A stretch of DNA of 27,146 nucleotides from Blastopirellula marina (GTDB lineage Bacteria > Planctomycetota > Phycisphaerae > Sedimentisphaerales > UBA12454): the NCBI GenBank assembly GCA_020721975.1, contig DYLR01000012.1:1-27146 (forward strand). Reading direction: 5' to 3'. The position numbers were made by a program, and so were the translations under genes. The notes beneath the pieces were generated by a model. The model was not told the DNA's origin. It saw nothing but the letters and a program-made list of their open reading frames with translations, and made no database searches. Positions 1,771 to 22,706 of this stretch are shown here, piece after piece (position 1 is the first letter of the stretch; each line of letters starts with the position of its first letter).

Positions 1771-4056
1771 ATGAACTCGGCTCCAACGAATGTCGAGAAG
1801 CTGCGGGCGATACCTATTATAATTGTTGCGACCTTTTTGCGGTCTATATACCTGCTGACGGTTACAGGCACGGTCTTTGTGCTGTTTCTCGATGAGCTTG
1901 GTATTGATAAGGCCCGCATAGGTGTCGTGATGTCTATCGCGCCGTTTATCGGCATCATTTCGCTTGTCATTGTGCCGATTGTCGAACGCAGCGGCCTGAA
2001 GCGTACGACGAAAATTTTCTGGATGCTGCGCGTACTTATAACCATCCTGATTCCCGTTACGCCGCTGATTATGAAATACACGGGTGAAACCGGCGTATTC
2101 GTCTGGTTGTCAGCCACGCAGTGTGCATTTGCCGTTTCGGGTTATATCGCAGTAACAGCTTATGCCTCGTGGTATCAGGAGCTTGTTCCGGACAGACTCC
2201 GCGGCAAAACTGCGGCTATCAATTTTATCGGCATAGGCTTATCGACGATAATCACGCTGGCTGCAGCGGGCTATATCACCGACAGATTTGCGGGTCTCAA
2301 GCCGTTTGTTTTTTTAATGATTGGAGGGCTGGTAATCGGGTTTGTTGCTGAAGTGGTGTTAAGCCGGCTGCCAGGCGGACAGCCTATATTGAGGCAGGAA
2401 CATCACAAGACTCATCTGCAGTTCATCAAAGATGCCCTGTGTGATAAGAACTTTATGCTGATGATGGCGGCTCTTGTGCTGATTAATATCGCCGTTTTTG
2501 GTGCGGGTGCGTTTGTGCCGTTGTATCAAAAGCAGATTCTCGGTCTTTCGGCCAGCCAGATTATGTTCTCTGCAATGTGTTATTCTGTGGCAGTGCTTGG
2601 GGCGTATTATTTTTACGGTTGGGCGGCGGACAGATACGGAGCAAAGCCTGTGCTTATTTTCGGCATTGCCAATCTTGTGCCGAGCGGGATATTCTGGTAT
2701 CTGACAAAACTGCCGGCAGGCAATGAAGGTCGCTTTGCCGCGACGATATTTGTGGCTGTGTTTTTTGCCCTCACACAGGCCGGATGGGTAATTGGTTTTG
2801 ACCGTTATGTTTATAATACGCTCATTCCGGTAGGCAAAAAAACTTCATATCTTTCCATTCAGCACGCCGTCGGCGGCGTTGCGGCCGGTGTCGGGCCGCT
2901 TGTGACAGGCTGGCTGATTGAAATATGCAAGCCCCTGAATTCAACGACCATAATGGGGGTGAAACTCGATGCGTATATTCCGTTTTTTGTGTTATATGGG
3001 GTTTTGACGTTTGCGAGTGTTATGCTGCTGAAAAGACTCAAACAGGACAGTCAGATTACAACCCAGCAGTTTGTAGGTATGTTTTTTCAGGGCGACCCGC
3101 TTACGGCACTGCATTCAATGGCTCGTTACCGGATGGCCAAGGGCGAATCTGAACGCATTGACAAAACATCCGATATGGGGATGTCCAGCAGTCCGCTTAA
3201 TGTTGAGGAGCTTTTAGAAGCCCTGCACGACCCGAGTTTTAACGTTCGTTATGAAGCCGTTATAGCGATATCGCGTCGCAAGCCGCATCCCAAACTTACC
3301 GAGGCGTTGATTAACATTTTGCTTGGCCCGGACCTTGAGCTTGCCGCCTCGGCGGCCTGGGCGCTTGGGCGTATCGGCGACAAATCCGCTATCGGCGCTC
3401 TTCGTGAATGTCTTGCTGTGCCGTATCCGCTGCTGCAGGCGCGTGCTGCGCGGACATTGGGCGCTTTGGGCGACGTTGAAAGCTCTCCGATGCTGCTGGA
3501 CTGGCTGCGCAGCGACATTGACCCGACACTGAAAAGGGCATGCGCATCGGCTCTTGGCGCCCTGCGCGTGCCGGCTGCGCTGCCGGATATTTTCAATCTG
3601 CTGCTTACAAACAAGCGTGCGAGTTTTCGCGGCGAGCTTACAATGGCGATGGCGCGAACGGTTGGGTCTGAAAGTCAGTTTATTAACCTGTGGCGAAGAA
3701 TGAACGAAGATACCGCGACCGCAGAGGCTCATCAGGTAATCGATACCTGCAAATCTCTTGCAAAACTGAAAATCAGCGAGGGTCCGATTGTCGAGCGATT
3801 GAACGATTGCGCGGAGAAATTTGCCTCAGGCCGGACGGCTGAAGCCACAAAAATAATTTGCGATATCGCCGTCGAGCTGCCTACCGACGGTATCGATCAT
3901 CATATTATAAAGCTGATGAATCTGTGCAGACAGCAGCTTTTAAGTGTTCCGCAGCAGGACCACTGTCTGCTTGCTCTTTTGCTGCATATTATTTCGACAA
4001 TGCTCCGCCGGCAGGTAGTGCAGGTCAAGCGGGCAGGAAAAACAAAAAATATTTAA
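1771..4056 (+). CDS. Fusion of an MFS transporter (N-terminal ~420 aa, 12 predicted TM helices) with a C-terminal HEAT-repeat domain (PBS-lyase/E-Z type HEAT repeats).
   Basis: The N-terminal half is hydrophobic with an MFS-like helix pattern. The C-terminal ~280 aa contains repeated HEAT-like units: LLEALHDPSFNVRYEAVIAI, AASAAWALGRIGDKSAIGAL, ARAARTLGALGD and KRACASALGALR. Confidence 0.75.
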   Translation: MNSAPTNVEKLRAIPIIIVATFLRSIYLLTVTGTVFVLFLDELGIDKARIGVVMSIAPFIGIISLVIVPIVERSGLKRTTKIFWMLRVLITILIPVTPLIMKYTGETGVFVWLSATQCAFAVSGYIAVTAYASWYQELVPDRLRGKTAAINFIGIGLSTIITLAAAGYITDRFAGLKPFVFLMIGGLVIGFVAEVVLSRLPGGQPILRQEHHKTHLQFIKDALCDKNFMLMMAALVLINIAVFGAGAFVPLYQKQILGLSASQIMFSAMCYSVAVLGAYYFYGWAADRYGAKPVLIFGIANLVPSGIFWYLTKLPAGNEGRFAATIFVAVFFALTQAGWVIGFDRYVYNTLIPVGKKTSYLSIQHAVGGVAAGVGPLVTGWLIEICKPLNSTTIMGVKLDAYIPFFVLYGVLTFASVMLLKRLKQDSQITTQQFVGMFFQGDPLTALHSMARYRMAKGESERIDKTSDMGMSSSPLNVEELLEALHDPSFNVRYEAVIAISRRKPHPKLTEALINILLGPDLELAASAAWALGRIGDKSAIGALRECLAVPYPLLQARAARTLGALGDVESSPMLLDWLRSDIDPTLKRACASALGALRVPAALPDIFNLLLTNKRASFRGELTMAMARTVGSESQFINLWRRMNEDTATAEAHQVIDTCKSLAKLKISEGPIVERLNDCAEKFASGRTAEATKIICDIAVELPTDGIDHHIIKLMNLCRQQLLSVPQQDHCLLALLLHIISTMLRRQVVQVKRAGKTKNI

Positions 4057-8804: not shown

Positions 8805-10790
8805 CTACATTCCCGGCATCATTCCGGGCATCATCATACCCGGCATTCCGGGCATACCTTCCATACCGCCCGGCATTGTTCCCGGCTTAGGTATTTCAAA
8901 GCCGCGTCCGGGTGTACCGGCAGGCGTTCTAAATTCCACCGCCGCCTTTACCTTTTCCTGTAAATCTTTATAAGTCTGCAAAACGCTGCTCGGCCAGAAT
9001 CGCTCGCCTATCGCCAGACTTGCAAGCTGTTGAGGATTATAACTGTACACAGCCGAATAGTATTCCTGCTGTTTTAACCCCTTTGACGCATCCCAGTCGT
9101 TCACTTTGATTACATCAACCAGTATCGCACCGGTTGTATAATCAATTTTTTGAGGTTCACTGCTGCCGTAGCCAGAGGCGCCGTCGGATGTCGTGGTTTC
9201 CTCGACATATTTGCCTATCATTTCGCCGCATTTAACCGGGAAATCCTTTGCCGACCATCGACCCAGATGATACTTCATTACCTCGATTGTGGCGGTTTTT
9301 GCAGGGTCGCGCCATTCTTTGGGGAACAGGTGCATTCGCAAAGGCGTTTTAATGGGTTCGGTCGGAACAGAGAATTTGCTCCAGAGTATCACCTCGCTAT
9401 TAAGCTGCTGCTGTTCTTCCACAACATAATTTTTGCCGGCCACCGGATTAAATACGCCCGCACGAATTCTGTACTGATATTCTTTCCCGCTTTCGGTTGT
9501 ATCATCATAAGCCCAGACAACGACCTTTTTGAGATTTTCGAGTTTATTTCTTTCATCCAGTTTCAGGCTTAAAAATTCATTCTCGATTTTCTGTATGCCC
9601 GTTGAGTCAAAATCGCTTTGGCCGGTTCTTTTCGATACAGACGGTTCTGTGCGTCTGATTTGCTCGGCAGGCTGTGTTCGGACTCCGGTCTGACGCGTCG
9701 GCGCGGCAGGCGTCATTCCCCCCGGCCCGCCCATACCCATGCCGGGCATTCCCATTCCGCCCATACCCATATCCGGCATTGCTCCGCCTGTGCCTGTGCC
9801 TCTTATAGATGTTGTACGGGTTTCCCGTGCGGAAGTGCGGCGGTTGCGTTCTTCTATTCTTGCGCGTTTTTCCGCTTCAAGCTGTTCGCGTTTGCGGGCT
9901 TCTTCCTGTTTGGCTATCAGCTCCTCACGGGTTTTCCAGAGTTTCGGGCAAAGCCACTGTGTCCCCGGATATGCGTAATTGTAAACCGCCGGCTGCAAAA
10001 TCTCCTTCTGATACTGCTCGGCGCCGAAACTTATAAGTACTATATCCATATTGACCTTCAGCTCGTCTATGCTGTGCGGCACAGCCAGTTCTTTTTGCAG
10101 GGGAAAATTCCGGGCCTCCGGCACAGGCGCCCACTGACTCCATTGACCGTCTTCGAGCTTTTCCCGTCTTTCAAGCTGAACATCGGCAAATACCGGCCTG
10201 GCATACCGCTCGTCCCGCCATTCCTTGCGCACCGACGCCGCGGCAAAACTTTCCCGGAATTTCCTGGCAATACCCTCAAAATCAACCGTACACTGCACAC
10301 TAACCAGGTCGATATCGTTTAAGTCTGAAGTATCCTGTGAAAACGATGCATTCGGATTCAGCGGGTCGTCGGGTATATGTGTTACTATCTGCACCATTGC
10401 CGCGTGAACGTCGTTCACGTCCGGAATATCCGGCAAGTGATATTTTCTGTCTTCAAGACTTACCGTGCCTTCATCATAATAAGGCAGACTCATCGTTTTT
10501 GACAAATCCACGCCTTTGATGCTTTTGCTGATGTTTTCGGCAAATAATTCGCATTTAGGCACAAAATTTCCGGCTCGATTCGGCTCGCCGCGAATCTGCT
10601 CATAGAGTTTGTCGGCTTTTGTGCTGATATACCGGTCTATTTCGCCCGGGGCGCGAGGCCTGCCGTCAACTTTGACCGCGGGCGCACGAAGCACATTAAA
10701 AAATATTATCACAAGACTGATAATTACCGCTATAGCGATAACCGCCTTATCCAGATATTGTTCAAATATACTGCTTTTTTTTCTGCTCAT
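8805..10790 (-). CDS. Membrane-anchored protein (N-terminal TM helix) with a large extracytoplasmic region, a coiled-coil segment and Met/Gly/Pro-rich tracts. The tracts are an internal MPDMGMGGMGMPGMGMGGPGGM and a C-terminal tail ...MPGGMEGMPGMPGMMMPGMMPGM-stop. It is the third gene of the PilMN-fusion cluster.
   Basis: The 661-aa ORF has a hydrophobic helix at aa ~16-36, a charged coiled coil ELIAKQEEARKREQLEAEKRARIEERNRR, and low-complexity MGP tracts. The DNA carries 9-nt ccgggcat-type repeats at 8808-8900 and 9716-9790. Confidence 0.65.
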   Translation of the reverse strand: MSRKKSSIFEQYLDKAVIAIAVIISLVIIFFNVLRAPAVKVDGRPRAPGEIDRYISTKADKLYEQIRGEPNRAGNFVPKCELFAENISKSIKGVDLSKTMSLPYYDEGTVSLEDRKYHLPDIPDVNDVHAAMVQIVTHIPDDPLNPNASFSQDTSDLNDIDLVSVQCTVDFEGIARKFRESFAAASVRKEWRDERYARPVFADVQLERREKLEDGQWSQWAPVPEARNFPLQKELAVPHSIDELKVNMDIVLISFGAEQYQKEILQPAVYNYAYPGTQWLCPKLWKTREELIAKQEEARKREQLEAEKRARIEERNRRTSARETRTTSIRGTGTGGAMPDMGMGGMGMPGMGMGGPGGMTPAAPTRQTGVRTQPAEQIRRTEPSVSKRTGQSDFDSTGIQKIENEFLSLKLDERNKLENLKKVVVWAYDDTTESGKEYQYRIRAGVFNPVAGKNYVVEEQQQLNSEVILWSKFSVPTEPIKTPLRMHLFPKEWRDPAKTATIEVMKYHLGRWSAKDFPVKCGEMIGKYVEETTTSDGASGYGSSEPQKIDYTTGAILVDVIKVNDWDASKGLKQQEYYSAVYSYNPQQLASLAIGERFWPSSVLQTYKDLQEKVKAAVEFRTPAGTPGRGFEIPKPGTMPGGMEGMPGMPGMMMPGMMPGM

Positions 10791-10868: not shown

Positions 10869-12125
10869 TCATATTCCGGTGTTTTCCGTCGCCGTTTCTG
10901 CCGTCGGCGTTTCCACCGGCTGATTCAGGCTGCTCTTCACTGCGTCAGGTTTTATTTTATCATATCCTGCGCGAACAAAAACATATTCGCAGACGCAGGT
11001 AAGCTCGACCACAGGCTTTTTGCCGTAGCGATAAAGCCGGTGAGCCTCGCTTTCCCTGTCCGCTGCGTAGCTTTGTATGCCCATAACGGTAATCTGATTA
11101 TGCACAAACTGCTTTTCAGGTTCGTCGCCTTTATATCCCCTCCAGACGTGCTTTTTTTCACTGCAAAGCTCGCTGATAAAATTCATAACCTGGTCTGTCT
11201 CGACGACTACACCCACGGCAAAGTGTACTACGTCAATCGTGTCGTTGCACAGCCTTGTTGTCCACGCATCGGCAAGGCCGCCTGTGAAGCTGGTAACATA
11301 TACAGGCATTTGAACCTTCGCCTGCTGCTCGCGTGCCGTGCTTTCCGGTGCAGTTGCCATAATAATGGTGCTTTCAAAACTTACGCCGAGCAGTCTTTTA
11401 ACCGGCGATTCGAGTACGTTTTTGGCCTTGCTGTTAATTTTTATAATCGTATCGGCCAGGTCCTGCTGTATCCACCAGGCCAGTTGTGTGTACCAGCAGT
11501 CCTGCACGGCTGCATCGACCCCGGCATACTGCCAGTCCAGCCAGATCTCATAACCGACAAAGTTATCCGTTCTGGCATAACATTTTATACCCAGCGCCTT
11601 CTGCTTGCACAATTCGTTAATTATTGCCTCGGTATTGTCTGTCTGGTCTGTACCGCCGTATCTGAATGCGTCTCTGGCCGTGCTTTTACTGCCGGTGGCA
11701 AACTCGATTTCCCTGCTTGTGGGAGCTTCACCGGACTGCATTTTCTTAGGCAGCTCTTTAAATGCTTTCAATGCATTTTCGCCAAAATCGCTGAATATCT
11801 GCCGCGAAGTTTCCTGCGGTTTCGGAAAAATTTTATAACTTAAAAGTTCCCTTTGCGTTGTCTGGGCGGCAAGTTCAGCCACTTTATTGGCGTCCTGCGC
11901 GGCTTTATCCTGAATTTCCTGTTCAACCTGCCACTGCTGCATGGATACCGGATTTCTGCTGATAGAATCGATCCTGTCGGCCAGTGAAACGCTTTGCTGC
12001 ATCATTTTGGCCAGTCCGCGTTTACCTGTGAATACCAGCAGTCCCAGCAGTACCGCCACAAGCACAAGACCGGCCGGTATCAGCAGCATAATATTCTTTC
12101 TGATAAAATTTTTTATAAATTTCAT
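10869..12125 (-). CDS. Membrane-anchored protein (N-terminal TM, coiled coil, then a globular domain). By position it is PilO/GspM-like in the cluster, but its function is unknown.
   Basis: The 418-aa ORF has a TM helix LLIPAGLVLVAVLLGLLVF near the N-terminus followed by a Q/E-rich coiled coil. It is co-oriented and tightly spaced with the flanking cluster genes. The plus-strand ORF 11040..11843 is judged an antisense shadow. Confidence 0.55.
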   Translation of the reverse strand: MKFIKNFIRKNIMLLIPAGLVLVAVLLGLLVFTGKRGLAKMMQQSVSLADRIDSISRNPVSMQQWQVEQEIQDKAAQDANKVAELAAQTTQRELLSYKIFPKPQETSRQIFSDFGENALKAFKELPKKMQSGEAPTSREIEFATGSKSTARDAFRYGGTDQTDNTEAIINELCKQKALGIKCYARTDNFVGYEIWLDWQYAGVDAAVQDCWYTQLAWWIQQDLADTIIKINSKAKNVLESPVKRLLGVSFESTIIMATAPESTAREQQAKVQMPVYVTSFTGGLADAWTTRLCNDTIDVVHFAVGVVVETDQVMNFISELCSEKKHVWRGYKGDEPEKQFVHNQITVMGIQSYAADRESEAHRLYRYGKKPVVELTCVCEYVFVRAGYDKIKPDAVKSSLNQPVETPTAETATENTGI

Positions 12126-12140
12126 ATTATGTTAGAGCCT

Positions 12141-14480
12141 TTAAGATTGCGTCTGCTCAGGCATCTGCGGCGCATCCCGCCACAGCAGCTTGATTTTAAT
12201 CCTGAACCATTTGTCGCGCACAATATATTTGGGTTTTTTGAATACGTCATATATCGGATTGCCCTGCTGGTCGAGCTGTACCGACCGGCTGATTTCTTCC
12301 TTTGTCATAGGGTCGATAAGTATTTTTTCAGATGAAATCTGCTCAAAGCCTCTGCCTCTGGTTGAGGTGCTGCCGCGGCCTGTCGCCGGCGAGGTTGCGG
12401 CCGGTGTAGTTTCGCCGTCGGCGACTTTTATATCTTCCACGCCTATGCCTTCGGGCATCGGCACATCAATAGCCACATCCCCTGTCTCAAGCACCCAGTG
12501 AGCCGGCATACCCCTGCCGTAAAGTTCAAAAGGACTGTTGCCGTCGATGAGCTTGTCAAGGTTCGCCAGACGTGTAAGAAATCCCCATTTGCTTTTATTG
12601 TCTCCGACACCTGCGGGGTCAAGCAGCTCATCTATGTCCATATACGGGCTGTATCCTTCGATAACAACTGTAAAGCCCGGTCCGCTTTTCTGGCCCGGCG
12701 CTTCAAGCGACTGATCTGTACTGCCGGAATAACCCTGAGTCTGAATTTTTCTGGCCGATTCTCCGCCTCTGCTGCTGCCTCCGCCGTACCCCCCGGGCGC
12801 CCCCATCGGACCTTCAAAACCGCCAGGCCCCATCATACCTGGACCCATCATACCAGGTCCCATCATACCAGGCACTGCCATACCGCCTCCGGTGGTGCTT
12901 CTGGTTGATTCTCTCGTGGCAGTCTGGCCGAACTGAGCGCTTGCAACATTCGATGCAAAGTTAATTTGAATGCCGGTAACAAATATCTGTTTGCGTTCTT
13001 TCCGGGGTATTGATTTAACAGCCTCAACGTCGCCTTCCGCGAAAGCCTTGTAAAGATTGCTCTGCTGAGGATTGTTTTCCGCGTTCGGCAGACACATTGC
13101 AATGGTCTCGTGAATTTGCGGTATTATCTGGCGGTACTTGAACAAATCGGAATATCTGTTTATTTTCTGCTCATATTCGCTGCGGCGGTTTTGTTCCTGC
13201 TGGAATTTATTTTGTGCCTCCTCGGCCTGACTGAGAATATTTTCAACTCTGCGGCGATACTCCTGCGCATCCTTGCTGTAATAGGCCTTTTTCTCAATTC
13301 CGGTTTTTACCATACTTATCAGCATTGCAGCCACAAGCAGACCGGCCGCTATCACCAGATACAGCGATTTTTGCTTCCACGTCATACTTAGCGCAATTTT
13401 TCGCGGCAAAAGATTCGTTTGCACTTTGGCCAAACCAAGAGCCTGCAGGCCGAGACCATAAGCTATACCCATATCGCAAATGTTTTCGTGCATCTGGGCG
13501 GCAGAAACATTTTCCGCGGGCTTGAGTTTGTCGAATGACTCCGGCTTAATGACGGGAAGCTGGAGCGTTTGCTGCAGGAACTTTATTAAACCCTGCATTT
13601 TGAATCCGCCGCCCATCACGATTACCTTTGTGAAATCCGTCTTTCTGTGGCTGCTGCTGTAAAAGCCTAAACTGCGCTGAATTTCTGCCGAGAAATCCGT
13701 GAACACCGGCCGCATTGAATGGAATATCTGCCGGGCATATTTGCTCATCGGCGCAGTGCGTTTGAGTTTTTCCGCCTTGGCAAAATTCAGCTTAAATGCG
13801 TCGGCCACCGCCCGTGTGAACGAATTTCCGCCAAGCGGTATTGTTCGCTGCCAGACTGTGTTTTGAGTACAGACCACAAGATTGGTGTTCTCCGTACCCA
13901 TATCGAGAATGATTATCGCCTTGCTGTCATCCTGGGGCATGTCGTTACGGTCGTAATGCGCATAATTATAAAGAGCCATCGGCCCCATCTGCACCACCGA
14001 CACCCTGATGCCCTCTGCGCTGAAATTTTCAAGAAAATCGTTGATAAGCTCGTTCTTAATGGCAAAGATTCCAACCTCAGTATCGGGACTGTCCGACTTT
14101 TCCATTATCTGCCAGTCCCACTCGACCTCGTTGATGTCGAACGGTATCTGCTGAACAGCTTCAAATTTAATTATCTCAGGAATGCGTTTTTGCTCGACAG
14201 GCGGAAGTTTGATAAATCTTGCAAAACTGCTCTGGCCCGGCACTGAAATCGCCGCGGGGTCCTTCTTCAGGTCGTTGCGGGCAACAAAGGTACTCATCGT
14301 TTCCTGCATCACCGCGGTCTTTTCCTCCGCGGATACTTCCTCACCGCTGAGCATCTTTGAATGCTCAATATAGTCAAAACCGATTACCTGTACGCCATCC
14401 GCCGTCGGAAGCATACGCAGGGCCTTTAACGAATTACTGCCTATATCGATCGCCCAGACCGACCGCATTGCTGAGGCCAT
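12141..14480 (-). CDS. PilM-like actin-fold ATPase domain fused to a PilN-like TM + coiled-coil segment (GspL-like architecture). A ~400-aa C-terminal extension follows, containing (GPGMM)3 and a distal globular domain.
   Basis: The N-terminus AIDIGSNSLKAL (phosphate-1), IILDMGTENTNLVV and VIVMGGGFKMQGLIKFLQQTL match PilM ATPase-fold motifs. After aa ~360 come a TM helix SLYLVIAAGLLVAAMLISMV and a PilN-like coiled coil. Further on is MAVPGMMGPGMMGPGMMGPGGFEGPMGAPGGYGGG. A GGAAGG SD lies 4 nt upstream of ATG 14480. Confidence 0.75.
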   Translation of the reverse strand: MASAMRSVWAIDIGSNSLKALRMLPTADGVQVIGFDYIEHSKMLSGEEVSAEEKTAVMQETMSTFVARNDLKKDPAAISVPGQSSFARFIKLPPVEQKRIPEIIKFEAVQQIPFDINEVEWDWQIMEKSDSPDTEVGIFAIKNELINDFLENFSAEGIRVSVVQMGPMALYNYAHYDRNDMPQDDSKAIIILDMGTENTNLVVCTQNTVWQRTIPLGGNSFTRAVADAFKLNFAKAEKLKRTAPMSKYARQIFHSMRPVFTDFSAEIQRSLGFYSSSHRKTDFTKVIVMGGGFKMQGLIKFLQQTLQLPVIKPESFDKLKPAENVSAAQMHENICDMGIAYGLGLQALGLAKVQTNLLPRKIALSMTWKQKSLYLVIAAGLLVAAMLISMVKTGIEKKAYYSKDAQEYRRRVENILSQAEEAQNKFQQEQNRRSEYEQKINRYSDLFKYRQIIPQIHETIAMCLPNAENNPQQSNLYKAFAEGDVEAVKSIPRKERKQIFVTGIQINFASNVASAQFGQTATRESTRSTTGGGMAVPGMMGPGMMGPGMMGPGGFEGPMGAPGGYGGGSSRGGESARKIQTQGYSGSTDQSLEAPGQKSGPGFTVVIEGYSPYMDIDELLDPAGVGDNKSKWGFLTRLANLDKLIDGNSPFELYGRGMPAHWVLETGDVAIDVPMPEGIGVEDIKVADGETTPAATSPATGRGSTSTRGRGFEQISSEKILIDPMTKEEISRSVQLDQQGNPIYDVFKKPKYIVRDKWFRIKIKLLWRDAPQMPEQTQS
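12828..12872. repeat. Three perfect or near-perfect tandem 15-bp units (cccatcatacc[tggag]) encoding GPGMM x3 on the minus strand.
   Basis: The units cccatcatacctgga, cccatcataccaggt and cccatcataccaggc are read directly from the sequence. Confidence 0.8.
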
Positions 14481-16323: not shown

Positions 16324-16962
16324 ATGAAACGTGCAAGGACAGGGCAATACGTTGCGATATCGACAGTCGGCAAAAAGGTCAAGGCGTTTATTCCTGATGC
16401 GCTGCCGCCTGTACCGGCTCTTGAGATTTCGCCCAATTTGCAGGAATCCATCGACCGTGCGTTATTGGCTCTCGGCAGATTAGACAGCATTTCGATACTT
16501 TTGCCGGACATGTCTTTATTTCTTTATATGTATATCCGCAAGGAAGCTGTGCTATCCTCACAAATTGAAGGTACGCAGTCTTCGCTGTCGGATTTACTCT
16601 TGTTTGAGATTGATGCCGCTCCGGGCGTTCCGCTTGACGATGTGCAGGAAGTATCGAATTATGTTGCTGCGATGAATCACGGCCTAAAGAGGATACGCGA
16701 AGGATTCCCTGTTTCTGTACGGTTAATCAAAGAAATTCACAATGTTCTACTTTCCAGGGGCAGGGGCAGCAACAAAGAGCCTGGGCAGTTCCGCAAAAGC
16801 CAAAACTGGCTCGGCGGTACAATATCTGGCAATACGGTGTTTGTGCCTCCTCCGCCGGGCGAAGTGGCACAGTGTATGAGCGATTTGGAGAAATTTGTTC
16901 ACGATAAACCGCAGAAAATACCCACGCTGATTAAGAGCCTATCGAGCATAGCGCTGAATTGA
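16324..16962 (+). pseudogene. Fic/DOC family protein, 3'-truncated. The N-terminal ~210 aa are present, but the ORF stops just before the HPFx(D/E)GNGR active-site motif.
   Basis: The sequence ...EGTQSSLSDLL...GQFRKSQNWLGG...FVPPPPGEVAQCMSDLEKFVHD...IPTLIKSLSSIALN-stop follows the conserved Fic N-terminal layout. The next expected element (HPFxDGNGR) is absent in all three downstream frames. Confidence 0.55.
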
Positions 16963-17173: not shown

Positions 17174-17253
17174 TATTTGCAAGCCATCACCGGCTTTTAT
17201 TTTTTTCCCCGCTCACGGAGTCGGTGAGCGGGAAGCACAAGCAACAGGAGGAG
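17174..17253 (+). repeat. Copy 1 of an ~80-bp direct repeat: weak stem + T-tract, then a strong 9-bp hairpin CCCGCTCAC-GGAGTCG-GTGAGCGGG, then a CAGGAGGAG SD-like tail.
   Basis: It is near-identical to 17414-17493, with only a few mismatches in the first ~20 nt, 240 bp away. Confidence 0.7.
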
Positions 17254-17413
17254 AGAAGGAGTCAAAATTTCGTTCAAATCCCGTCGCTGCAAAAAGTCAA
17301 AAGTAAAAGGTCAAAAGTAAAAAGTAATGAAGCCATCCGCAAAAAGCGGATTCCATAGTTTTTATTTCTTCATTTTGACTTTTTACTCCCCGGGCTTATC
17401 CCGGAGGTTTTGC

Positions 17414-17493
17414 TATTTCTCAAGCCGTAACCGGCTTTTATTTTTCCCCCGCTCACGGAGTCGGTGAGCGGGAAGCACAAGCAACAGGAGGAG
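17414..17493 (+). repeat. Copy 2 of the ~80-bp direct repeat. Here the SD-like tail is followed after 7 nt by ATG 17508 of a 24-codon ORF (MSFFLPSTLCPQPKQNQSCRINGI).
   Basis: The match to copy 1 is read directly from the sequence. Confidence 0.7.
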
Positions 17494-17886
17494 GAAAAAA
17501 TGAGTTTTTTCTTACCGTCAACCCTGTGCCCACAACCGAAGCAAAATCAAAGCTGCCGCATCAACGGTATATAAACAAAATTCTGTTCACACAGAACTTT
17601 AGCCTGTTGTCCACAGGCCAGGCCCCGCAGGCCATCCTGCGAGGCCAATAGCCGGGTAAGTAAGGAGAGAAGCGTTATTGCCTTGTTCCTTAACTTCCTT
17701 GTTGCTGCCATTAAAAATATAAGAAATAAATCCGCTGATAAGAAATGAAGAGATAGGGAATAGGGGATTGGGTTGTCAAATGCAATAAATCAATTACCCG
17801 CACCGTCATACTATACGAGACGATTATTTTAGGGCAATAATCGTGAAAATTGGATATAAAAAATTCATATTGGAAAGGAACTCACA

Positions 17887-19146: not shown

Positions 19147-20331
19147 TTATTCGCGGGGGAATACTAATCGCCTGTAAAGTGCTTCAATTTTATCGACCAT
19201 TGTTTTGGGCGAGAACATATCTTTGACAAGTTCTCTGCCGTTTTGGCCGAGCCGGTCGCGCAAAGATTTATCTTCAATCAGCTCAACACAGGCTTTTGTG
19301 AGCTGCTCAATATTTTTTGGCTTGATAAGTCTGCCGGTGTTTTCATTCACAACTTCCCTGTTGCCGTCAACATCAAACGCAATTGTAGCCTTACCGCAGA
19401 GCATAGCCTGCGGCAAAACGCGTGCAAGTCCCTCACGCAACGAGCAATGCACAAGAATATCCGAGGCCTGCAACACAAGCGGAATTTGCTGCGGCGGTAC
19501 AAGGCCTGTAAAACGAAATTGATTCTCAAGTCCGGCCGATTTTATCCGCTGCTGTAAATTGTTTTTCAATAAACCGTCTCCGACAAAAAGCCAGACCACA
19601 TTCGGAAACTGCTTTGCAATAGTTTTGGCCGACTCAATAATGTATTCGTGTCCCTTGAGATAAAACAATCTTCCTATCGAAATAAGCACAACGGCATTAC
19701 TGGGAATATCGTGTTGTTTTCTGAATGCGGCAATTTGCTCCTGCGGCACAGGTGAAAGAAACACGTCTTCATCAATGGCCGAATATGCGGTAGTGAACAT
19801 TTCAGGCCTGCCGATTCCCTCGGCAAGCATCTGCTGTGTCATTGCATCGGCAACAGAAATAAAGGCATCGGTATATTTGGCTGCGTATTTTTCAATCGCC
19901 ACGAAAAGTCTGTTTTCGAGCCGGTTTTGATATGGATGAAACGCAAGGCCGTGAACGGTATGAACTATAAACGGAGTTTTGCGTTCGTGGTTTTGCATTT
20001 TAATTTTACCGGCTGCGAGTCTGCCGAGAATGCCCGCTTTGGCCGAGTGCGTATGGACAATCTCCGGCTGCAATTTCTTCAATAATTTATAAATCTTTTT
20101 ATACGCACGCCGGTCCGGCAGCGGCCTGATTGGGCGAATCAGTTCATCTATAACGATGGTTTTGTATTTCGCGTTTTTGGTTTGCTCGAACAGCGAGCCT
20201 TCCGGCCCGACGGCAGGGCCTGTGATTAAAACGACATCGTGGCCGCGGGCGGCAAGCTCCCGGCAGGTAATCAGCGTGTTTTCCTGCGCCCCGCCGAGTA
20301 TTAAACGAGTTATAATGTGAATGATTCTCAT
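19147..20331 (-). CDS. Glycosyltransferase family 4 (GT-B fold, group 1).
   Basis: The 394-aa protein starts MRIIHIITRLILGGAQENTLITCRELAARGHDVVLITG, consistent with a GT4 N-terminal domain. The C-terminal half carries the GT1/GT4 E-x7-E region (ARVLPQAMLCGKATIAFDVDGNREVV). Confidence 0.75.
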   Translation of the reverse strand: MRIIHIITRLILGGAQENTLITCRELAARGHDVVLITGPAVGPEGSLFEQTKNAKYKTIVIDELIRPIRPLPDRRAYKKIYKLLKKLQPEIVHTHSAKAGILGRLAAGKIKMQNHERKTPFIVHTVHGLAFHPYQNRLENRLFVAIEKYAAKYTDAFISVADAMTQQMLAEGIGRPEMFTTAYSAIDEDVFLSPVPQEQIAAFRKQHDIPSNAVVLISIGRLFYLKGHEYIIESAKTIAKQFPNVVWLFVGDGLLKNNLQQRIKSAGLENQFRFTGLVPPQQIPLVLQASDILVHCSLREGLARVLPQAMLCGKATIAFDVDGNREVVNENTGRLIKPKNIEQLTKACVELIEDKSLRDRLGQNGRELVKDMFSPKTMVDKIEALYRRLVFPRE

Positions 20332-20591
20332 CGATTAGAATGTAGAATATAGAAGGTAGAAGATAGCATAAGAATAAATATTATATCACGATTCAATTTT
20401 TCAGGCCCGCTTCTTTTCTTGAATCCCTCTGCAATGTTTGCAGGTATGGAAATTGCTGCTCGTCTCAACTGGGAGGTTAAAGTAAACAATTCTTCTTTTG
20501 GAAAACCTTTGCTTAATTCATAAGTTGCCAAGACAAATTTGTGTGCTTTCTGCCAAACAAGTAAGTCTGTAAAATTTTTTGCTTTTTCCAT
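20328..20591 (-). pseudogene. Four-helix-bundle protein (23S rRNA intervening-sequence protein family, TIGR02436-like), truncated. Only ~62 N-terminal aa are homologous; the remaining 25 codons read through the inverted-repeat DNA.
   Basis: MEKAKNFTDLLVWQKAHKFVLATYELSKGFPKEELFTLTSQLRRAAISIPANIAEGFKKRS matches the family's conserved N-terminal half from memory. The tail GPEKLNRDIIFILMLSSTFYILHSNR is encoded by the TAGAA-heptad repeat. Its stop TGA overlaps the GT4 ATG (ATGA). Confidence 0.5.
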
Positions 20592-20658
20592 AAATCTCCA
20601 TACATTAGAGGCGATCTCATTTTCTTCTTATTCTATCTTCTACATTCTATCTTCTAAT
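20334..20658. mobile_element. MITE-like ~325-bp element bounded by imperfect terminal inverted repeats built from heptad NNTAGAA units. The left arm is 20334-20376 and the right arm 20625-20658. It carries a truncated four-helix-bundle protein gene and is inserted exactly between the truA stop and the GT4 start.
   Basis: The left arm reads attagaatgtagaatatagaaggtagaagatagcataagaata. The reverse complement of the right arm reads attagaagatagaatgtagaagatagaataagaa. The truA stop codon TAG (20654-20656) is formed by the terminal CTAAT of the right arm. The GT4 ATG (20331) lies 2 bp outside the left arm. Confidence 0.5.
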
Positions 20659-21442
20659 ACCTTATCCACATCAGGCACAGGCCGTGGGGCGGTGCGATTG
20701 GACCGGCAGACGAGCGGTTGCATGCCTTGAGAATTTTCTCCACCTTTTCAGGCTTATATCGTCCCCGGCCAACCTCGACAAGCGTACCTACGATATTGCG
20801 AACCATATTATATAAGAAACCGTCGGCCTCAACATCTATGCAAATCCAGGGCAAAGAAGACCGCTCATTTACATTCGCGGCTCTGTGGTAAGCATAGGAA
20901 ATTTCGGGGGCTGATTGCACATCGCATCGCAAAATCGTCCGTATGGAACTTGAGCGTTTATCCGCCGCCGAGGCAAAAGACTTGAAATCATGTTCGCCGA
21001 TTAAATACTGTGCTGCCTGTGCCATTACCGCAGAATCAAGTTTATAAGGGTAGTACCAGCAATAGTGTGCCTGAAGCACAGGTCTGTTGACGCCGGTGTA
21101 TATCCAGTAGCGATACATTTTGGATTTGGTGTTTTTAATCGCATCAAAGTCCGGCTTTACCTGTTCGGCAGATATTATCGAAATGCTCTGCGGTAATTTG
21201 TTATTAACCGCACGTGCGAGATTTTCGGTCGGCACGGGACAATCTATTTCAAAATGCGCCACCTGTCCCAGCGCGTGAACGCCTGCGTCGGTTCTGCTTG
21301 AGCCGAAAAGTTCAACATATTTTCCGGTAAGCTCGGCTATCGTGTTTTCAAGAACACCCTGAATCGTCGGGCGGTTTTTCTGTTTAGCCCAGCCGAAATA
21401 ATCCGTGCCATCATAAGCAATTGTAAGTTTGATTTTACGCAT
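20654..21442 (-). CDS. truA: tRNA pseudouridine(38-40) synthase TruA. Start placed at the internal ATG 21442 rather than the extended ORF start at 21610.
   Basis: MRKIKLTIAYDGTDYFGWAKQ...GSSRTDAGVHALGQVAHFE carries the conserved TruA catalytic Asp region. Length is ~263 aa. The 56-codon N-terminal extension of the long ORF overlaps asd and lacks homology. Confidence 0.8.
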   Translation of the reverse strand: MRKIKLTIAYDGTDYFGWAKQKNRPTIQGVLENTIAELTGKYVELFGSSRTDAGVHALGQVAHFEIDCPVPTENLARAVNNKLPQSISIISAEQVKPDFDAIKNTKSKMYRYWIYTGVNRPVLQAHYCWYYPYKLDSAVMAQAAQYLIGEHDFKSFASAADKRSSSIRTILRCDVQSAPEISYAYHRAANVNERSSLPWICIDVEADGFLYNMVRNIVGTLVEVGRGRYKPEKVEKILKACNRSSAGPIAPPHGLCLMWIRY

Positions 21443-21458
21443 GAAAGAAGCATACTTC

Positions 21459-22460
21459 TTACAGCAGCTTTTCTGCGATTTGTATCGCGTTGAGCGCTGC
21501 GCCTTTGCGAATCTGGTCGCCGACGACCCACAGATTGATTCCGCGATGCCCCTGAATCGATTCGTCTTCGCGAATCCTGCCGACATAAACGTCGTCTTTG
21601 CCGCCGGCATCTATGGGCATTGGGAAGCGATTATTGATTCTGTCGTCGATAATGCTCACGCCGGGCGCTTTTTCGAGCAGTTGGCGCACCTCGTCGGGAC
21701 TGATAGGATGTGTAAATTCAAGATTGATGCTTTCGCTGTGGGCTCGCAGCACCGGCACACGAACACAGGTGCAGGTAATGGCAATGTCATCGCAGCCGAA
21801 AATTTTATGGGTTTCGTGTACCATTTTCATTTCCTCGGCATTATAGCCGTTGGGGTATATTTCGCTGTCGTGGTTGAATAAATTAAACGCAATCTGATAT
21901 TTGAATTTTCTGCACACCGGCGGCTCATCATCGAGTATCTGCCGGGCCTGCTGCATAAGCTCAAGCATCGCGGCCTGGCCGGCTCCGCTGGCGGCCTGAT
22001 AGGTACTAATGACTATTCGCTTAATCGGATTGGCCTTGTGCAGCGGCCAAAGCGGCACATTGGCGATAATCGTCGAACAGTTAGGATTGGCAATAATGCC
22101 CTTATGTTTGAATATCTCCTGCGGATTGACCTCCGGCACAACCAGCGGAATATCAGGGTCCATACGAAACGCACTGGAATTGTCAACCACAACTGCACCG
22201 GCCTTTACCGCAGCAGGAGCAAATTGCTTAGAACGGGAAGCGCCGGCGCTAAAAAGAGCTATATCAATATTGGCAAAGCTGTTTTCGGTGAGCTGCTCAA
22301 CCTTGTAAGTCCTGCCTCTGAAGACAATTTCCCTGCCGACAGAACGCTCAGAAGCAAGCATTTTTATCGACTTAACAGGGAATGCCCGCTGTTCAAGAAT
22401 TTCAAGGAATTCCTGTCCAACCGCACCGGTTACACCGGCAATTGCAATATTCTTTACCAT
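21459..22460 (-). CDS. asd: Aspartate-semialdehyde dehydrogenase.
   Basis: The N-terminus MVKNIAIAGVTGAVGQEFLEIL has the Rossmann GxxGxxG. NPNCSTI carries the active-site Cys. Length is 333 aa. Confidence 0.85.
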   Translation of the reverse strand: MVKNIAIAGVTGAVGQEFLEILEQRAFPVKSIKMLASERSVGREIVFRGRTYKVEQLTENSFANIDIALFSAGASRSKQFAPAAVKAGAVVVDNSSAFRMDPDIPLVVPEVNPQEIFKHKGIIANPNCSTIIANVPLWPLHKANPIKRIVISTYQAASGAGQAAMLELMQQARQILDDEPPVCRKFKYQIAFNLFNHDSEIYPNGYNAEEMKMVHETHKIFGCDDIAITCTCVRVPVLRAHSESINLEFTHPISPDEVRQLLEKAPGVSIIDDRINNRFPMPIDAGGKDDVYVGRIREDESIQGHRGINLWVVGDQIRKGAALNAIQIAEKLL

Positions 22461-22706
22461 ATTAACTCCAAATTAGTAAAAAACACCCAAAACTGTCCTA
22501 TTTTAATATCAATGCCGGAAAAGTCAACGACGAGTTGTTTATCACGGAATTGCAGTTGTTTTCATAATTCTTTGAATTTTTCCCTTGCGTTAAAAACTTG
22601 ATGATATTATTATGATATTATATTGATATAAACGTTTTTAAAAACTCGAAAGGAGATAAAATTATGCATGAATTTGAAAAGAAAGTTTTGAGCGGCTGGT
22701 TTAACT

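What the first reader, a model, noticed from the sequence alone, without database searches (positions are those of the whole stretch)
20334..20658. MITE-like element with TAGAA-heptad inverted repeats carrying a truncated 23S-IVS-family four-helix-bundle gene, inserted precisely between truA and a GT4 gene
Two imperfect inverted arms built of 7-nt NNTAGAA units (43 and 34 bp) bracket a 62-aa N-terminal fragment of a four-helix-bundle protein. This family was first described inside 23S rRNA intervening sequences. Here the element sits between protein-coding genes. Its right arm supplies the truA stop codon (TAG within CTAAT) and its left arm ends 2 bp from the GT4 start codon. It is therefore wedged into what would otherwise be a zero-length operon junction (asd-truA-GT4). 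The apparent C-terminus of the 4HB ORF is read straight out of the inverted-repeat DNA, with its TGA overlapping the GT4 ATG. This suggests a small non-autonomous mobile or IVS-derived cassette, and possibly effects on coupling between truA and GT4 expression.
Basis: partly seen in the sequence, partly recalled or inferred. Interest (0 to 1): 0.6.

Follow-up and report, generated by a model that had tools for sequence, protein, structure and literature searches.

The report
Decayed IVS-type four-helix-bundle cassette in operon
A small gene cassette of the kind known from inside bacterial 23S ribosomal RNA genes sits here, half-deleted, exactly between two protein-coding genes. Comparison with about 90 related loci suggests that such cassettes, closed by a stem of 7-base repeats, are wedged into operons in many bacterial phyla.

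Summary
Window 20334-20658 holds two complementary arms built of TAGAA heptads. They bracket an 87-codon ORF whose first ~66 residues are a PF05635/TIGR02436 four-helix-bundle (4HB) protein. The rest is read out of the 3' arm.

- **Junction geometry.** The truA stop lies in the first heptad. The ORF's TGA overlaps the GT4 ATG.
- **Relatives.** Sedimentisphaerales-like relatives carry an intact 119-aa 4HB gene at the same truA|GT4 junction, between equivalent heptad arms. Others have 4HB plus a cargo ORF. Two have an empty junction with overlapping stop and start (TATTGA). No target-site duplication is visible.
- **Survey of 80 4HB loci from more than 10 phyla.**
  - Purine-rich cores in 7-nt register lie upstream in 51% of loci, against 0.3% of control regions.
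  - The complementary cores lie downstream in 39%.
  - The reverse polarity was never seen.
  - Arm units co-vary within a locus.
- **Link to the known 23S intervening sequence (IVS).** The Coxiella 23S IVS has the same layout, including tandem heptamers and an RNase III-cut stem.

My reading is that this is a decaying IVS-type 4HB cassette living in an mRNA operon. Its stem probably acts in RNA, through RNase III processing and/or by holding the truA stop and GT4 start together. That mechanism is inferred, not shown. A classical MITE is not supported.

The parts
21459..22460 (-). asd (aspartate-semialdehyde dehydrogenase), first gene of the transcription unit
   Evidence: PF01118 + PF02774. 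The only good sigma-70-like site on this strand lies just upstream at 22500-22527. No terminator-like site occurs on the - strand down to GT4.
20654..21442 (-). truA (tRNA pseudouridine synthase A). Its stop codon TAG (20654-20656) is the first TAG of the element's 5' arm.
   Evidence: PF01416. A 262-aa gene call on the NCBI contig. Sequence read.
20621..20658 (-). 5' arm on the sense strand: purine-rich heptads TAGAAGA TAGAATG TAGAAGA TAGAATA AGAAGAA
20592..20620 (-). Spacer inside the loop, with a GGAG Shine-Dalgarno-like motif 4 nt before the 4HB ATG
   Evidence: Sequence read. L003 has the equivalent 'ataGGAGagttATG'.
20394..20591 (-). Retained N-terminal about 66 codons of the 4HB (PF05635/TIGR02436) gene. 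All 28 family-invariant residues of this stretch are kept.
20328..20393 (-). Non-homologous tail of the ORF. It runs through a short degenerate stretch, the deletion joint (about 165 bp missing relative to L003) and the 3' arm, and ends at a TGA overlapping the GT4 ATG.
   Evidence: Alignments A1 and A2
20334..20378 (-). 3' arm on the sense strand: pyrimidine-rich heptads complementary to the 5' arm (TTTATTC TTATGCT ATCTTCT ACCTTCT ATATTCT ACATTCT AAT)
   Evidence: 33 inter-arm pairs in the mini-stem fold, z -5.9.
19147..20331 (-). GT4-family glycosyltransferase. Its ATG lies 2 nt after the 3' arm.
   Evidence: PF00534, PF13439 and related domains. Orthologs at 62-68% identity in Sedimentisphaerales/Phycisphaerae MAGs.

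Best explanation
The feature is a decaying copy of an 'intervening-sequence-type' cassette.

**Anatomy.** The complete element is about 460-490 nt. It has a purine-rich array of 4-6 heptads, a short spacer with a ribosome-binding site, a roughly 120-aa four-helix-bundle gene in the sense orientation, and a complementary pyrimidine-rich heptad array.

**Position.** In this Phycisphaerae lineage it sits between the last sense codon of truA (TAY) and the ancestral overlapping TGA/TTG stop-start. The element's first three bases (TAG or TAA) give truA a new stop. Its last base (A) plus the host TG give GT4 an ATG.

**State in the window.** About 165 bp have been lost: 4HB codons from about 69 to 119, the stop, and the spacer. 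The stem survives.

**Proposed working (inferred).**
1. The element is transcribed as part of the asd-truA-GT4 mRNA.
2. The two arms zip into a 33-bp imperfect helix that loops out the insert.
3. The helix is a plausible RNase III substrate, as in the 23S rRNA IVS.
4. Its foot also places the truA stop next to the GT4 start, so a terminating ribosome would melt the foot and expose the GT4 start. This would replace the translational coupling that the empty site has.
5. Building the arms from tandem units lets the stem survive unit gains and losses, because any register still pairs.

The truncated protein is most likely non-functional.

**Shown versus inferred.** Shown: anatomy, homology, synteny, empty sites, and the family-wide architecture. 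Inferred: RNA-level action, RNase III cleavage, coupling, and the mode of mobility.
For: **Identity and truncation.**

**Same junction in relatives.**
- Intact 4HB between heptad arms in L003/L004, L007/L008 and L100.
- A cargo ORF plus 4HB in L011 and L101.
- A rearranged double cassette in L010.

**Empty sites.**
- L017 and L098 read TAT|TGA with an overlapping TTG start.
- Their flanks (TGAAGATAGTTCAT; TGAAAATCGT) are the same as in filled L100 and L101.
- In truA and GT4 neighbour-joining trees, empty L098 groups with filled L007/L011.

**Stem.**
- 25-45 inter-arm pairs in all five syntenic loci, z -3 to -9.
- The stem foot lies at most 12 nt from the stop and start.
- Unit variants TAGAAGA, CAGAACA and CAGGAGA are each matched by the complementary 3' arm.

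**Family-wide survey.**
- AGRA cores in 7-nt register (three or more) lie upstream in 41 of 80 loci, against 1 of 294 controls.
- TYCT cores lie downstream in 31 of 80 loci, against 4 of 294 controls.
- Spacings of 6 nt never reach three in register in either flank; 9 nt does so in only 3 of 80 downstream flanks and never upstream.
- Reverse polarity is 0 of 80.
- Own-locus left unit versus reverse complement of the right unit differs by 0.88 mismatches on average, against 2.24 across loci; 0 of 5000 permutations did as well.
- Both neighbours are co-oriented in 44 loci, against 12 with both antisense.
- The upstream stop lies within about 6 nt of the 5' arm, and the downstream start about 10 nt after the 3' arm, in roughly half of the clear cases.

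**Link to the rRNA IVS (PMC4990558, read).** The Coxiella IVS has an S23p/4HB ORF preceded by 3-4 tandem heptamers GACAGAT of variable number. RNase III cuts inside the inverted-repeat stem at the first repeat, and the ORF is decaying.

**Transcription unit.** No promoter-like or terminator-like site on the - strand falls within or next to the element.
Against: - No experiment or transcript data exist for this organism, so RNase III cleavage and coupling are untested.
- The sense-strand wobble test is only weakly positive: 55 G.U-type against 34 A.C-type mismatches, p = 0.03. All four mismatches in the window's own stem are non-wobble. A DNA-level role of the arms is therefore not excluded.
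- About a third of the surveyed 4HB loci show no recognisable arms.
- The N-terminal fragment keeps all invariant residues and a ribosome-binding site. A residual function of the 87-aa product, or its use as a coupling ORF for GT4, cannot be excluded.
- The branch support that places the empty site L098 within filled lineages is modest (58% in a short concatenated alignment).
Confidence: 0.72

Rival explanations
1. It is a classical DNA-level MITE or non-autonomous transposon. The heptad arrays would be terminal inverted repeats recognised by a transposase supplied in trans, and any RNA folding would be incidental.
For: - The junction is polymorphic for presence and absence.
- The element has low GC.
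- 4HB proteins are 59-70% identical across more than 10 phyla, far above housekeeping divergence, which suggests horizontal spread.
- Two cassettes occur in one operon in L062.
- The wobble test does not clearly favour RNA.
Against: - Comparison of filled and empty sites shows no target-site duplication.
- No transposase is present in the window or in the cassettes.
- The TAGAA arms occur only once in the 27-kb window.
- Orientation is strongly biased towards the host transcription direction (44 against 12).
- Purine-arm-upstream polarity is strict (80 to 0).
- Arm ends coincide with stop and start codons, which fits an element that lives in transcripts.
Confidence: 0.15
2. It is an ordinary resident small gene of this lineage, now a pseudogene. 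The flanking repeats would be a local regulatory hairpin or simple slippage products, with no relation to IVS elements or mobility.
For: Relatives have an intact gene at the same place. The cassette has evidently been inherited vertically for a long time, since flanking proteins are only 58-77% identical.
Against: - Empty junctions with an intact overlapping stop-start exist, one of them nested among filled lineages.
- The same arm architecture surrounds 4HB genes at unrelated loci in more than 10 phyla and in viral contigs.
- The published rRNA IVS has the same architecture.
- The cargo inside the loop varies.
Confidence: 0.05
3. The heptad arrays are binding sites for the pentameric 4HB protein itself. 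The cassette would be an autoregulated module in which the protein binds its own flanking repeats in RNA or DNA, and the stem would be secondary.
For: - Period 7 and complementarity are conserved while the unit sequence drifts: CAGGAGT, TAGAAGG, GGAGTAG, AGGGTGT, TAGTGGT.
- Arms usually hold 4-6 units.
- Family members form pentameric rings: PDB 2GSC was the only solved-structure hit, and PMC4990558 describes the Xanthomonas protein as a homopentamer.
- The related Avd binds nucleic acid in DGRs (established knowledge).
Against: - There is no binding data.
- The window keeps the arms although the protein is truncated.
- Unit sequences vary widely while the protein is 60-80% identical, which argues against sequence-specific recognition.
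Confidence: 0.08

Closest known systems
23S rRNA intervening sequences that carry an S23p/4HB ORF (Coxiella burnetii, Leptospira; PMC4990558)
   Same: - Inverted repeats close a stem around a loop that holds a sense-oriented PF05635 ORF.
- Tandem heptamers lie 5' of the ORF, with variable copy number.
- The ORF is prone to decay.
- The distribution is sporadic and suggests horizontal transfer.
   Different: - The host site here is the junction between two protein-coding cistrons (truA|GT4), not helix 25 or 45 of 23S rRNA.
- The element's ends supply a stop codon and complete a start codon.
- RNase III excision is documented for the IVS but not tested here.
Correia elements of Neisseria and ERIC/IRU elements of enterobacteria (small inverted-repeat elements co-transcribed with operons; from my own knowledge, not tested here)
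   Same: They are short elements bounded by inverted repeats, inserted in transcribed intergenic regions. They fold into long RNA hairpins that are RNase targets and alter expression of neighbouring genes. They show presence/absence polymorphism.
   Different: Those elements are 100-150 bp, carry no ORF, occur in tens to hundreds of copies and (Correia) duplicate a TA target. Here there is an ORF in the loop, arms made of tandem heptads, no visible duplication, and one copy in 27 kb.
Avd, the accessory protein of diversity-generating retroelements (NF033474, PF22296)
   Same: It belongs to the same four-helix-bundle superfamily. Weak hits were found: 37 bits for the intact ortholog and 20 bits for the window fragment.
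   Different: The scores are far below the 80-bit cut-off. No reverse transcriptase or template/variable repeat pair is present in the window.
STRR heptanucleotide tandem repeats of heterocystous cyanobacteria (from my own knowledge)
   Same: They are tandem 7-nt units in intergenic regions. Several cyanobacterial 4HB loci here are flanked by such arrays (L022, L023, L046, L054).
   Different: STRR units (for example CCCCAGT) were described as dispersed repeats without any link to 4HB genes. Identity with the arms was not tested, and a literature search gave no link.

Membership tests
PF05635 / TIGR02436 four-helix-bundle protein (23S rRNA IVS protein family) | Profile match above the curated cut-off | tested here: met
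   PF05635 scores 78.9 bits against a 33.8 cut-off. TIGR02436 scores 72 bits against a cut-off of 24.
PF05635 / TIGR02436 four-helix-bundle protein (23S rRNA IVS protein family) | Complete domain of about 106-109 positions (four helices) | tested here: not met
   Only profile positions 2-60 of 106 are present. Alignment A1 shows divergence after ...GFKKRSGPEKL. About 165 bp are missing relative to L003. Orthologs are 119 aa and complete.
23S rRNA intervening sequence (IVS) | Located inside a 23S rRNA gene (helix 25 or 45) | tested here: not met
   It lies between truA and GT4. No rRNA or any other Rfam family reaches gathering score in the window or in 14 related loci.
23S rRNA intervening sequence (IVS) | Terminal inverted repeats that close a stem around the insert | tested here: met
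23S rRNA intervening sequence (IVS) | Sense-oriented S23p/4HB ORF in the loop, preceded by tandem heptamers (Coxiella type) | tested here: met
   Compared with the description in PMC4990558.
23S rRNA intervening sequence (IVS) | Excision from the transcript by RNase III | not testable with these tools
   This needs RNA end-mapping or in-vitro cleavage. Only the predicted 33-bp helix is available.
MITE (miniature inverted-repeat transposable element) | Target-site duplication flanking the terminal inverted repeats | tested here: not met
   Comparing filled and empty sites (L100 with L017, L101 with L098, and the window) shows a plain insertion between TAY and TGA with no duplicated bases.
MITE (miniature inverted-repeat transposable element) | Many near-identical copies in the genome, derived from an autonomous transposon | tested here: inconclusive
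   The TAGAA arms occur once in the 27-kb window. One ORF-less heptad hairpin with a different unit lies at 17291-17387. The rest of the genome was not available, and no transposase was seen.
MITE (miniature inverted-repeat transposable element) | Presence/absence polymorphism at orthologous sites | tested here: met
   L017 and L098 are empty. L003, L007, L010, L011, L100, L101 and the window are filled.
DGR accessory protein Avd | Equivalog score and an adjacent reverse transcriptase with template/variable repeats | tested here: not met
   NF033474 scores 20-37 bits against a cut-off of 80. No reverse-transcriptase domain is found in any window ORF.

The most novel reading that the evidence does not exclude
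The 23S rRNA IVS may be only the first-noticed special case of a phylum-spanning class of 'intervening cassettes'.

- The core is a 4HB gene, sometimes with extra cargo such as a GIY-YIG-like nuclease or an unknown 300-aa protein.
- The gene sits in a loop closed by a zipper of complementary tandem heptads.
- The cassette inserts without target duplication exactly between cistrons of operons, or into rRNA hairpin loops.
- It is tolerated because the stem splices the interruption out functionally at the RNA level, through RNase III cleavage and/or stop-start juxtaposition.

The conserved period of 7 with a drifting unit sequence would then reflect a still unknown structural or mechanistic rule.
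Probability: 0.45. Interest if true: 0.8.

Novelty: new variant of a known kind. Interest (0 to 1): 0.62.

Why it matters
Intervening sequences of 23S rRNA and their conserved ORF have been known since the early 1990s. Their origin, their mobility and the role of the 4HB protein remain unexplained.

If the same stem-plus-4HB architecture is a general occupant of operon junctions across many phyla, three things follow.

1. The IVS problem becomes testable in mRNA contexts, where filled, empty, cargo-carrying and decayed alleles of one site can be compared. The truA|GT4 junction is such a series.
2. Thousands of 'four helix bundle protein' annotations gain a genomic meaning.
3. It points to a way in which bacteria tolerate insertions inside translationally coupled operons.

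For genome annotation, it also flags the 87-aa ORF here as a pseudogene whose C-terminus is repeat DNA.

Tried and rejected
1. **Metagenome scan with GT4.** It returned one usable locus only (L017), which happened to be an empty site. I obtained further orthologous junctions through a protein search and four contig look-ups instead.
2. **Rfam.** Nothing was significant in the element at E up to 10, and nothing reached gathering score in the window plus 14 loci.
3. **Column-wise covariation on an anchored alignment of the syntenic arms.** I abandoned this because heptad slippage shifts the register between loci: the outermost pair lies -7 to +6 nt from the stop. I replaced it with a unit-level own-versus-cross test.
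4. **Strict self-similarity detection of periodic arms (23 of 28).** It found only 22 and 17 of 76 flanks, because the units are degenerate. A core-in-register test was more sensitive.
5. **Wobble asymmetry as a test of RNA against DNA.** The result was only weakly positive.
6. **Target-site duplication.** I looked for one and found none.
7. **A sigma-54-like reading of the conserved spacer CTGGCAGAATGTGAAAGG in L007/L010/L011.** I considered it and dropped it because the GG-N10-GC spacing does not fit.
8. **Cargo ORFs.** No Pfam, NCBIfam or PADLOC family was found. For the L010 ORF there is only motif-level GIY-YIG resemblance and a weak UvrC N-terminal hit (E 0.005).
9. **Viral contigs.** There are only 7 distant 4HB homologs, so phages are not an obvious main vehicle.
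10. **Literature searches.** Seven searches found no description of heptad-flanked 4HB cassettes outside rRNA. That corpus omits most subscription journals.
11. **Assembly artefact.** This is unlikely because the same ORF appears in two assemblies. They may, however, share reads.

Full report
**1. What is in the window**

All genes of the region are on the - strand.
- asd lies at 21459-22460, truA at 20654-21442, an 87-codon ORF at 20328-20591, and a GT4-family glycosyltransferase at 19147-20331.
- The ORF matches PF05635 (23S_rRNA_IVP) at E 4e-22. The match covers only profile positions 2-60 of 106. It also matches TIGR02436, 'four helix bundle protein'.
- The ORF is flanked by two complementary arms, 20621-20658 and 20334-20378. 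The arms are built of 7-nt units: TAGAAGA/TAGAATG on the sense strand upstream, and the complement downstream.
- The heptad pattern occurs five times in the window, all here, against 0.07 expected.
- The truA stop TAG is the first TAG of the upstream arm. The GT4 ATG follows the downstream arm after 2 nt. The ORF's TGA overlaps that ATG.
- GC drops to 33%.
- As RNA, the 344-nt segment folds with the arms forming the closing helix (z -4.5).
- The arms alone give 33 inter-arm pairs (z -5.9).

**2. The ORF is a 3'-truncated pseudogene of a cassette that relatives carry intact**

About 4,300 homologs were found, and typical full-length ones are 119-125 aa. The window product aligns with them only to ...AEGFKKRSGPEKL. 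Its last ~20 residues are read from a short degenerate stretch and from the downstream arm.

The closest homologs (76-84% identity) are encoded at the same place, asd-truA-[4HB]-GT4, in Phycisphaerae/Sedimentisphaerales metagenome contigs. In L003 the intact gene is flanked by ATTAGAAGATAGAAGGTAGAATGTAGAAGG ... CCTTCTACATTCTATCTTCTAAT. These are the same TAGAA heptads, with the truA TAG and the GT4 ATG at the two feet.

A DNA alignment shows that the window lacks about 165 bp. The loss covers codons ~69-119, the stop and the 3' spacer. The retained part keeps all 28 family-invariant residues and its GGAG ribosome-binding site. The deletion therefore looks recent, or else the fragment is still constrained. 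The truncated form is present in two assemblies.

**3. The junction is polymorphic, and empty sites exist**

I sampled orthologous junctions through GT4 homologs and found five states.

| State | Loci |
|---|---|
| Empty: truA ...TAT TGA overlapping a TTG start of GT4 | L017, L098 |
| Intact 4HB cassette | L003, L007, L100 |
| Cassette with an extra 293/332-aa ORF between upstream arm and 4HB | L011, L101 |
| Rearranged double cassette with a GIY-YIG-like ORF, a 4HB fragment and a duplicated truA tail | L010 |
| Unrelated 158-aa ORF with only a remnant of the downstream arm | L099 |

Filled and empty alleles share the same flanks:
- L017 reads ...AAATAT|TGAAGATAGTTCAT.
- L100 reads ...CGTTAC|TAAGAACTTAG...GTGTTCTA|TGAAGATAGTTCAT.
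- L098 reads ...AAATAT|TGAAAATCGTTCAT.
- L101 reads ...GAGTAC|TAAAGAAGGAG...TTCTCGAAA|TGAAAATCGTACAT.

The element thus lies between the last sense codon of truA and the old TGA. Its first triplet (TAG or TAA) is the new truA stop. Its last A turns the host TG into an ATG. No bases are duplicated.

In neighbour-joining trees of truA and of GT4, the empty L098 groups with the filled L007 and L011. The window branches outside this group (support is modest). This implies either a precise loss or repeated gain. Either way, the cassette comes and goes.

**4. The arms pair in every lineage, although their units differ**

- Mini-stem folds of the five syntenic loci give 25-45 inter-arm pairs (z -3.0 to -9.2). 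The outermost pair lies within 0-12 nt of the stop and start codons.
- The units differ between lineages: TAGAAGA in the window and L003; CAGAACA/TAGAACT in L007, L010, L011 and L100; CAGGAGA in L101. In each case the downstream arm is the complement.

**5. The architecture is a property of the 4HB family, not of this locus**

*Other loci.* Non-syntenic close homologs sit between a response regulator and a hybrid kinase (L012), and between an ABC permease and its ATPase in a cyanobacterium (L014-16). They are again co-oriented with their neighbours and flanked by inverted arrays of 7- or 8-nt units. The number of units differs between near-identical contigs.

*Sample.* A scan of one genome per species returned at least 596 confirmed relatives. 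I examined the best 80 (L018-L097). They come from Planctomycetota, Verrucomicrobiota, Acidobacteriota, Nitrospirota, Cyanobacteria, Bacteroidota, Firmicutes, Thermodesulfobacteriota, Fibrobacteres, Gracilibacteria and others.

*Results.*
- AGRA cores in exact 7-nt register (three or more) lie within 160 nt upstream in 41 of 80 loci, and in 8-nt register in 4. The figure for control regions of the same loci is 1 of 294.
- TYCT cores lie downstream in 31 of 80 loci (8-nt register: 4), against 4 of 294 controls.
- A 6-nt register never occurs (three or more in register); a 9-nt register occurs only for TYCT downstream, in 3 of 80 loci.
- The opposite polarity occurs in 0 of 80 loci.
- 54 of 80 loci have at least one such arm. 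Several of the rest have heptad arms with other units, such as GTAGCAA, CAGTAGA and GAAGTCG.
- Within a locus, the consensus unit of the upstream arm differs from the reverse complement of the downstream unit by 0.88 positions on average. Between loci the figure is 2.24, and 0 of 5000 permutations did as well.
- Both neighbours are co-oriented in 44 loci and both are antisense in 12.
- In about half of the clear cases the upstream stop lies within ~6 nt of the upstream arm. In about half, the next start codon lies ~10 nt after the downstream arm.
- Even distant homologs on viral contigs (45% identity) have heptad arms, with yet other units: GGAGTAG/CTACTCC, AGGGTGT/ACACCCT and TAGTGGT/ACCACTA.

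Period 7, complementarity and purine-upstream polarity are conserved. The unit sequence is not.

**6. Link to what is known**

The Coxiella burnetii 23S rRNA IVS is described as follows (PMC4990558, read):
- It is a 428-nt element in helix 45 whose inverted repeats form a stem.
- RNase III cuts the stem in its middle.
- The loop carries an S23p ORF of this protein family.
- The ORF is preceded by three or four tandem heptamers (GACAGAT) whose number varies between strains.
- The RNase III site is at the first repeat, and the ORF is undergoing reductive evolution.

That is the same anatomy as here, including decay of the ORF. The host site differs: here it is an mRNA junction.

The family has one solved structure among sequence-detectable relatives, 2GSC. 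It is distantly related to DGR Avd, but the scores are far below the equivalog cut-off and there is no reverse transcriptase in the window.

Seven full-text searches found no description of heptad-flanked 4HB cassettes in protein-coding operons. The corpus is incomplete, so this is weak evidence of novelty. Rfam has no matching family.

**7. How it most likely works**

*Shown.* The anatomy, the insertion point, the conserved pairing, and the sense orientation.

*Inferred.*
1. The cassette has no promoter-like site of its own on the coding strand, and no terminator separates asd, truA, the cassette and GT4. It is therefore probably read as part of the operon mRNA.
2. The arms would zip into a helix of more than 30 bp, which meets the length requirement of RNase III. 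By analogy with the IVS, the loop would then be cut out.
3. The foot of the helix puts the truA stop beside the GT4 start. In the empty allele these two overlap, which is the classic arrangement for translational coupling. GT4 has no ribosome-binding site in the filled alleles.
4. A ribosome terminating at truA would therefore melt the foot and free the GT4 start, preserving the coupling across a 320-490-nt insert.
5. Arms made of tandem units pair in any register, which makes the stem robust to unit gain and loss.

In the window, the truncated ORF additionally runs through the downstream arm and stops on the GT4 ATG, which could itself couple GT4 translation. This may be chance, because two of the three frames are open across the arm.

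The evidence that the stem acts in RNA rather than DNA is weak: 55 G.U-type against 34 A.C-type mismatches, p = 0.03. How the cassette moves is unknown. The absence of a target duplication and of any transposase argues against a cut-and-paste MITE.

**8. Verdict**

- 'IVS-derived cassette wedged into a zero-length junction, ORF truncated' is right.
- 'MITE' is not demonstrated.
- The element is not private to this genome. It is an old, polymorphic occupant of this junction.

The window copy itself is a relic. The wider pattern it led to is the interesting part: heptad-zipper stems around 4HB genes at operon junctions across many phyla, matching the rRNA IVS. It deserves a systematic census and one RNA-level experiment.

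Noticed in passing
window 17291-17387 (+), with direct repeats at about 17181-17255 and 17421-17495: An ORF-less hairpin. Its 5' arm is five tandem heptads (AAAAGTC/AAAAGTA) and its 3' arm is the complement (RNA fold z -5.0). It has the same purine-upstream polarity as the 4HB cassettes relative to the flanking + strand genes. It lies between two ~75-nt direct repeats that each contain the palindrome CCCGCTCACGGAGTCGGTGAGCGGG. It may be a 'solo stem' relic of a cassette.
   Followed up: partly
L010 1745-2500: A rearranged double cassette at the truA|GT4 junction. It reads: upstream arm and spacer, then a 126-aa ORF with GIY-YIG-like motifs (GVY-X9-YVG, E..LI....PnfN). That ORF has a weak UvrC N-terminal hit at E 0.005 and no Pfam hit. 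Next comes a 4HB fragment fused to a second copy of the truA tail, then a second upstream arm and an intact 4HB gene.
   Followed up: partly
L011 1607-2488 and L101 698-1696: Homologous cargo ORFs of 293 and 332 aa (N-terminus IQRPPKIY[FL]DTNHLI) sit inside the loop between the upstream arm and the 4HB gene, in two lineages with different heptad units. No Pfam, NCBIfam or PADLOC family was found.
   Followed up: partly
L011 2916-4010: The first ~78 nt of GT4 are duplicated on either side of an inserted ORF with a weak S9-peptidase/hydrolase match. The junction region therefore appears to be a hot spot for insertions.
   Followed up: no
L062 190-670 and 2440-2910: Two paralogous 4HB cassettes lie 2.2 kb apart in one operon of a Planctomycetota MAG. 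Each has its own heptad arms and a similar spacer. The first precedes a prepilin-like gene (read); the gene after the second was not inspected.
   Followed up: partly
L014, L015, L016 (downstream arm, about 2860-3010): Near-identical cyanobacterial contigs differ in the length of the 8-nt-unit array (AACTCCTG) after the 4HB gene. L014 and L015 differ by 48 nt, or six units. This shows rapid unit gain and loss, as reported for the Coxiella IVS heptamers.
   Followed up: no
window 16324-16962 (+): A 212-aa ORF that matches only the N-terminal Fic_N domain. It may be a truncated Fic/DOC gene. It lies directly upstream of the repeat-rich intergenic region described above.
   Followed up: no
window 8805-10790 and 10869-12125 (-): Two large ORFs (661 and 418 aa) have no Pfam match. 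The first contains a 15-nt tandem repeat at 9727-9775; the similar 15/30-nt repeats at 12823-12884 lie in the adjacent PilM-like gene (12141-14480), not in the second ORF.
   Followed up: no
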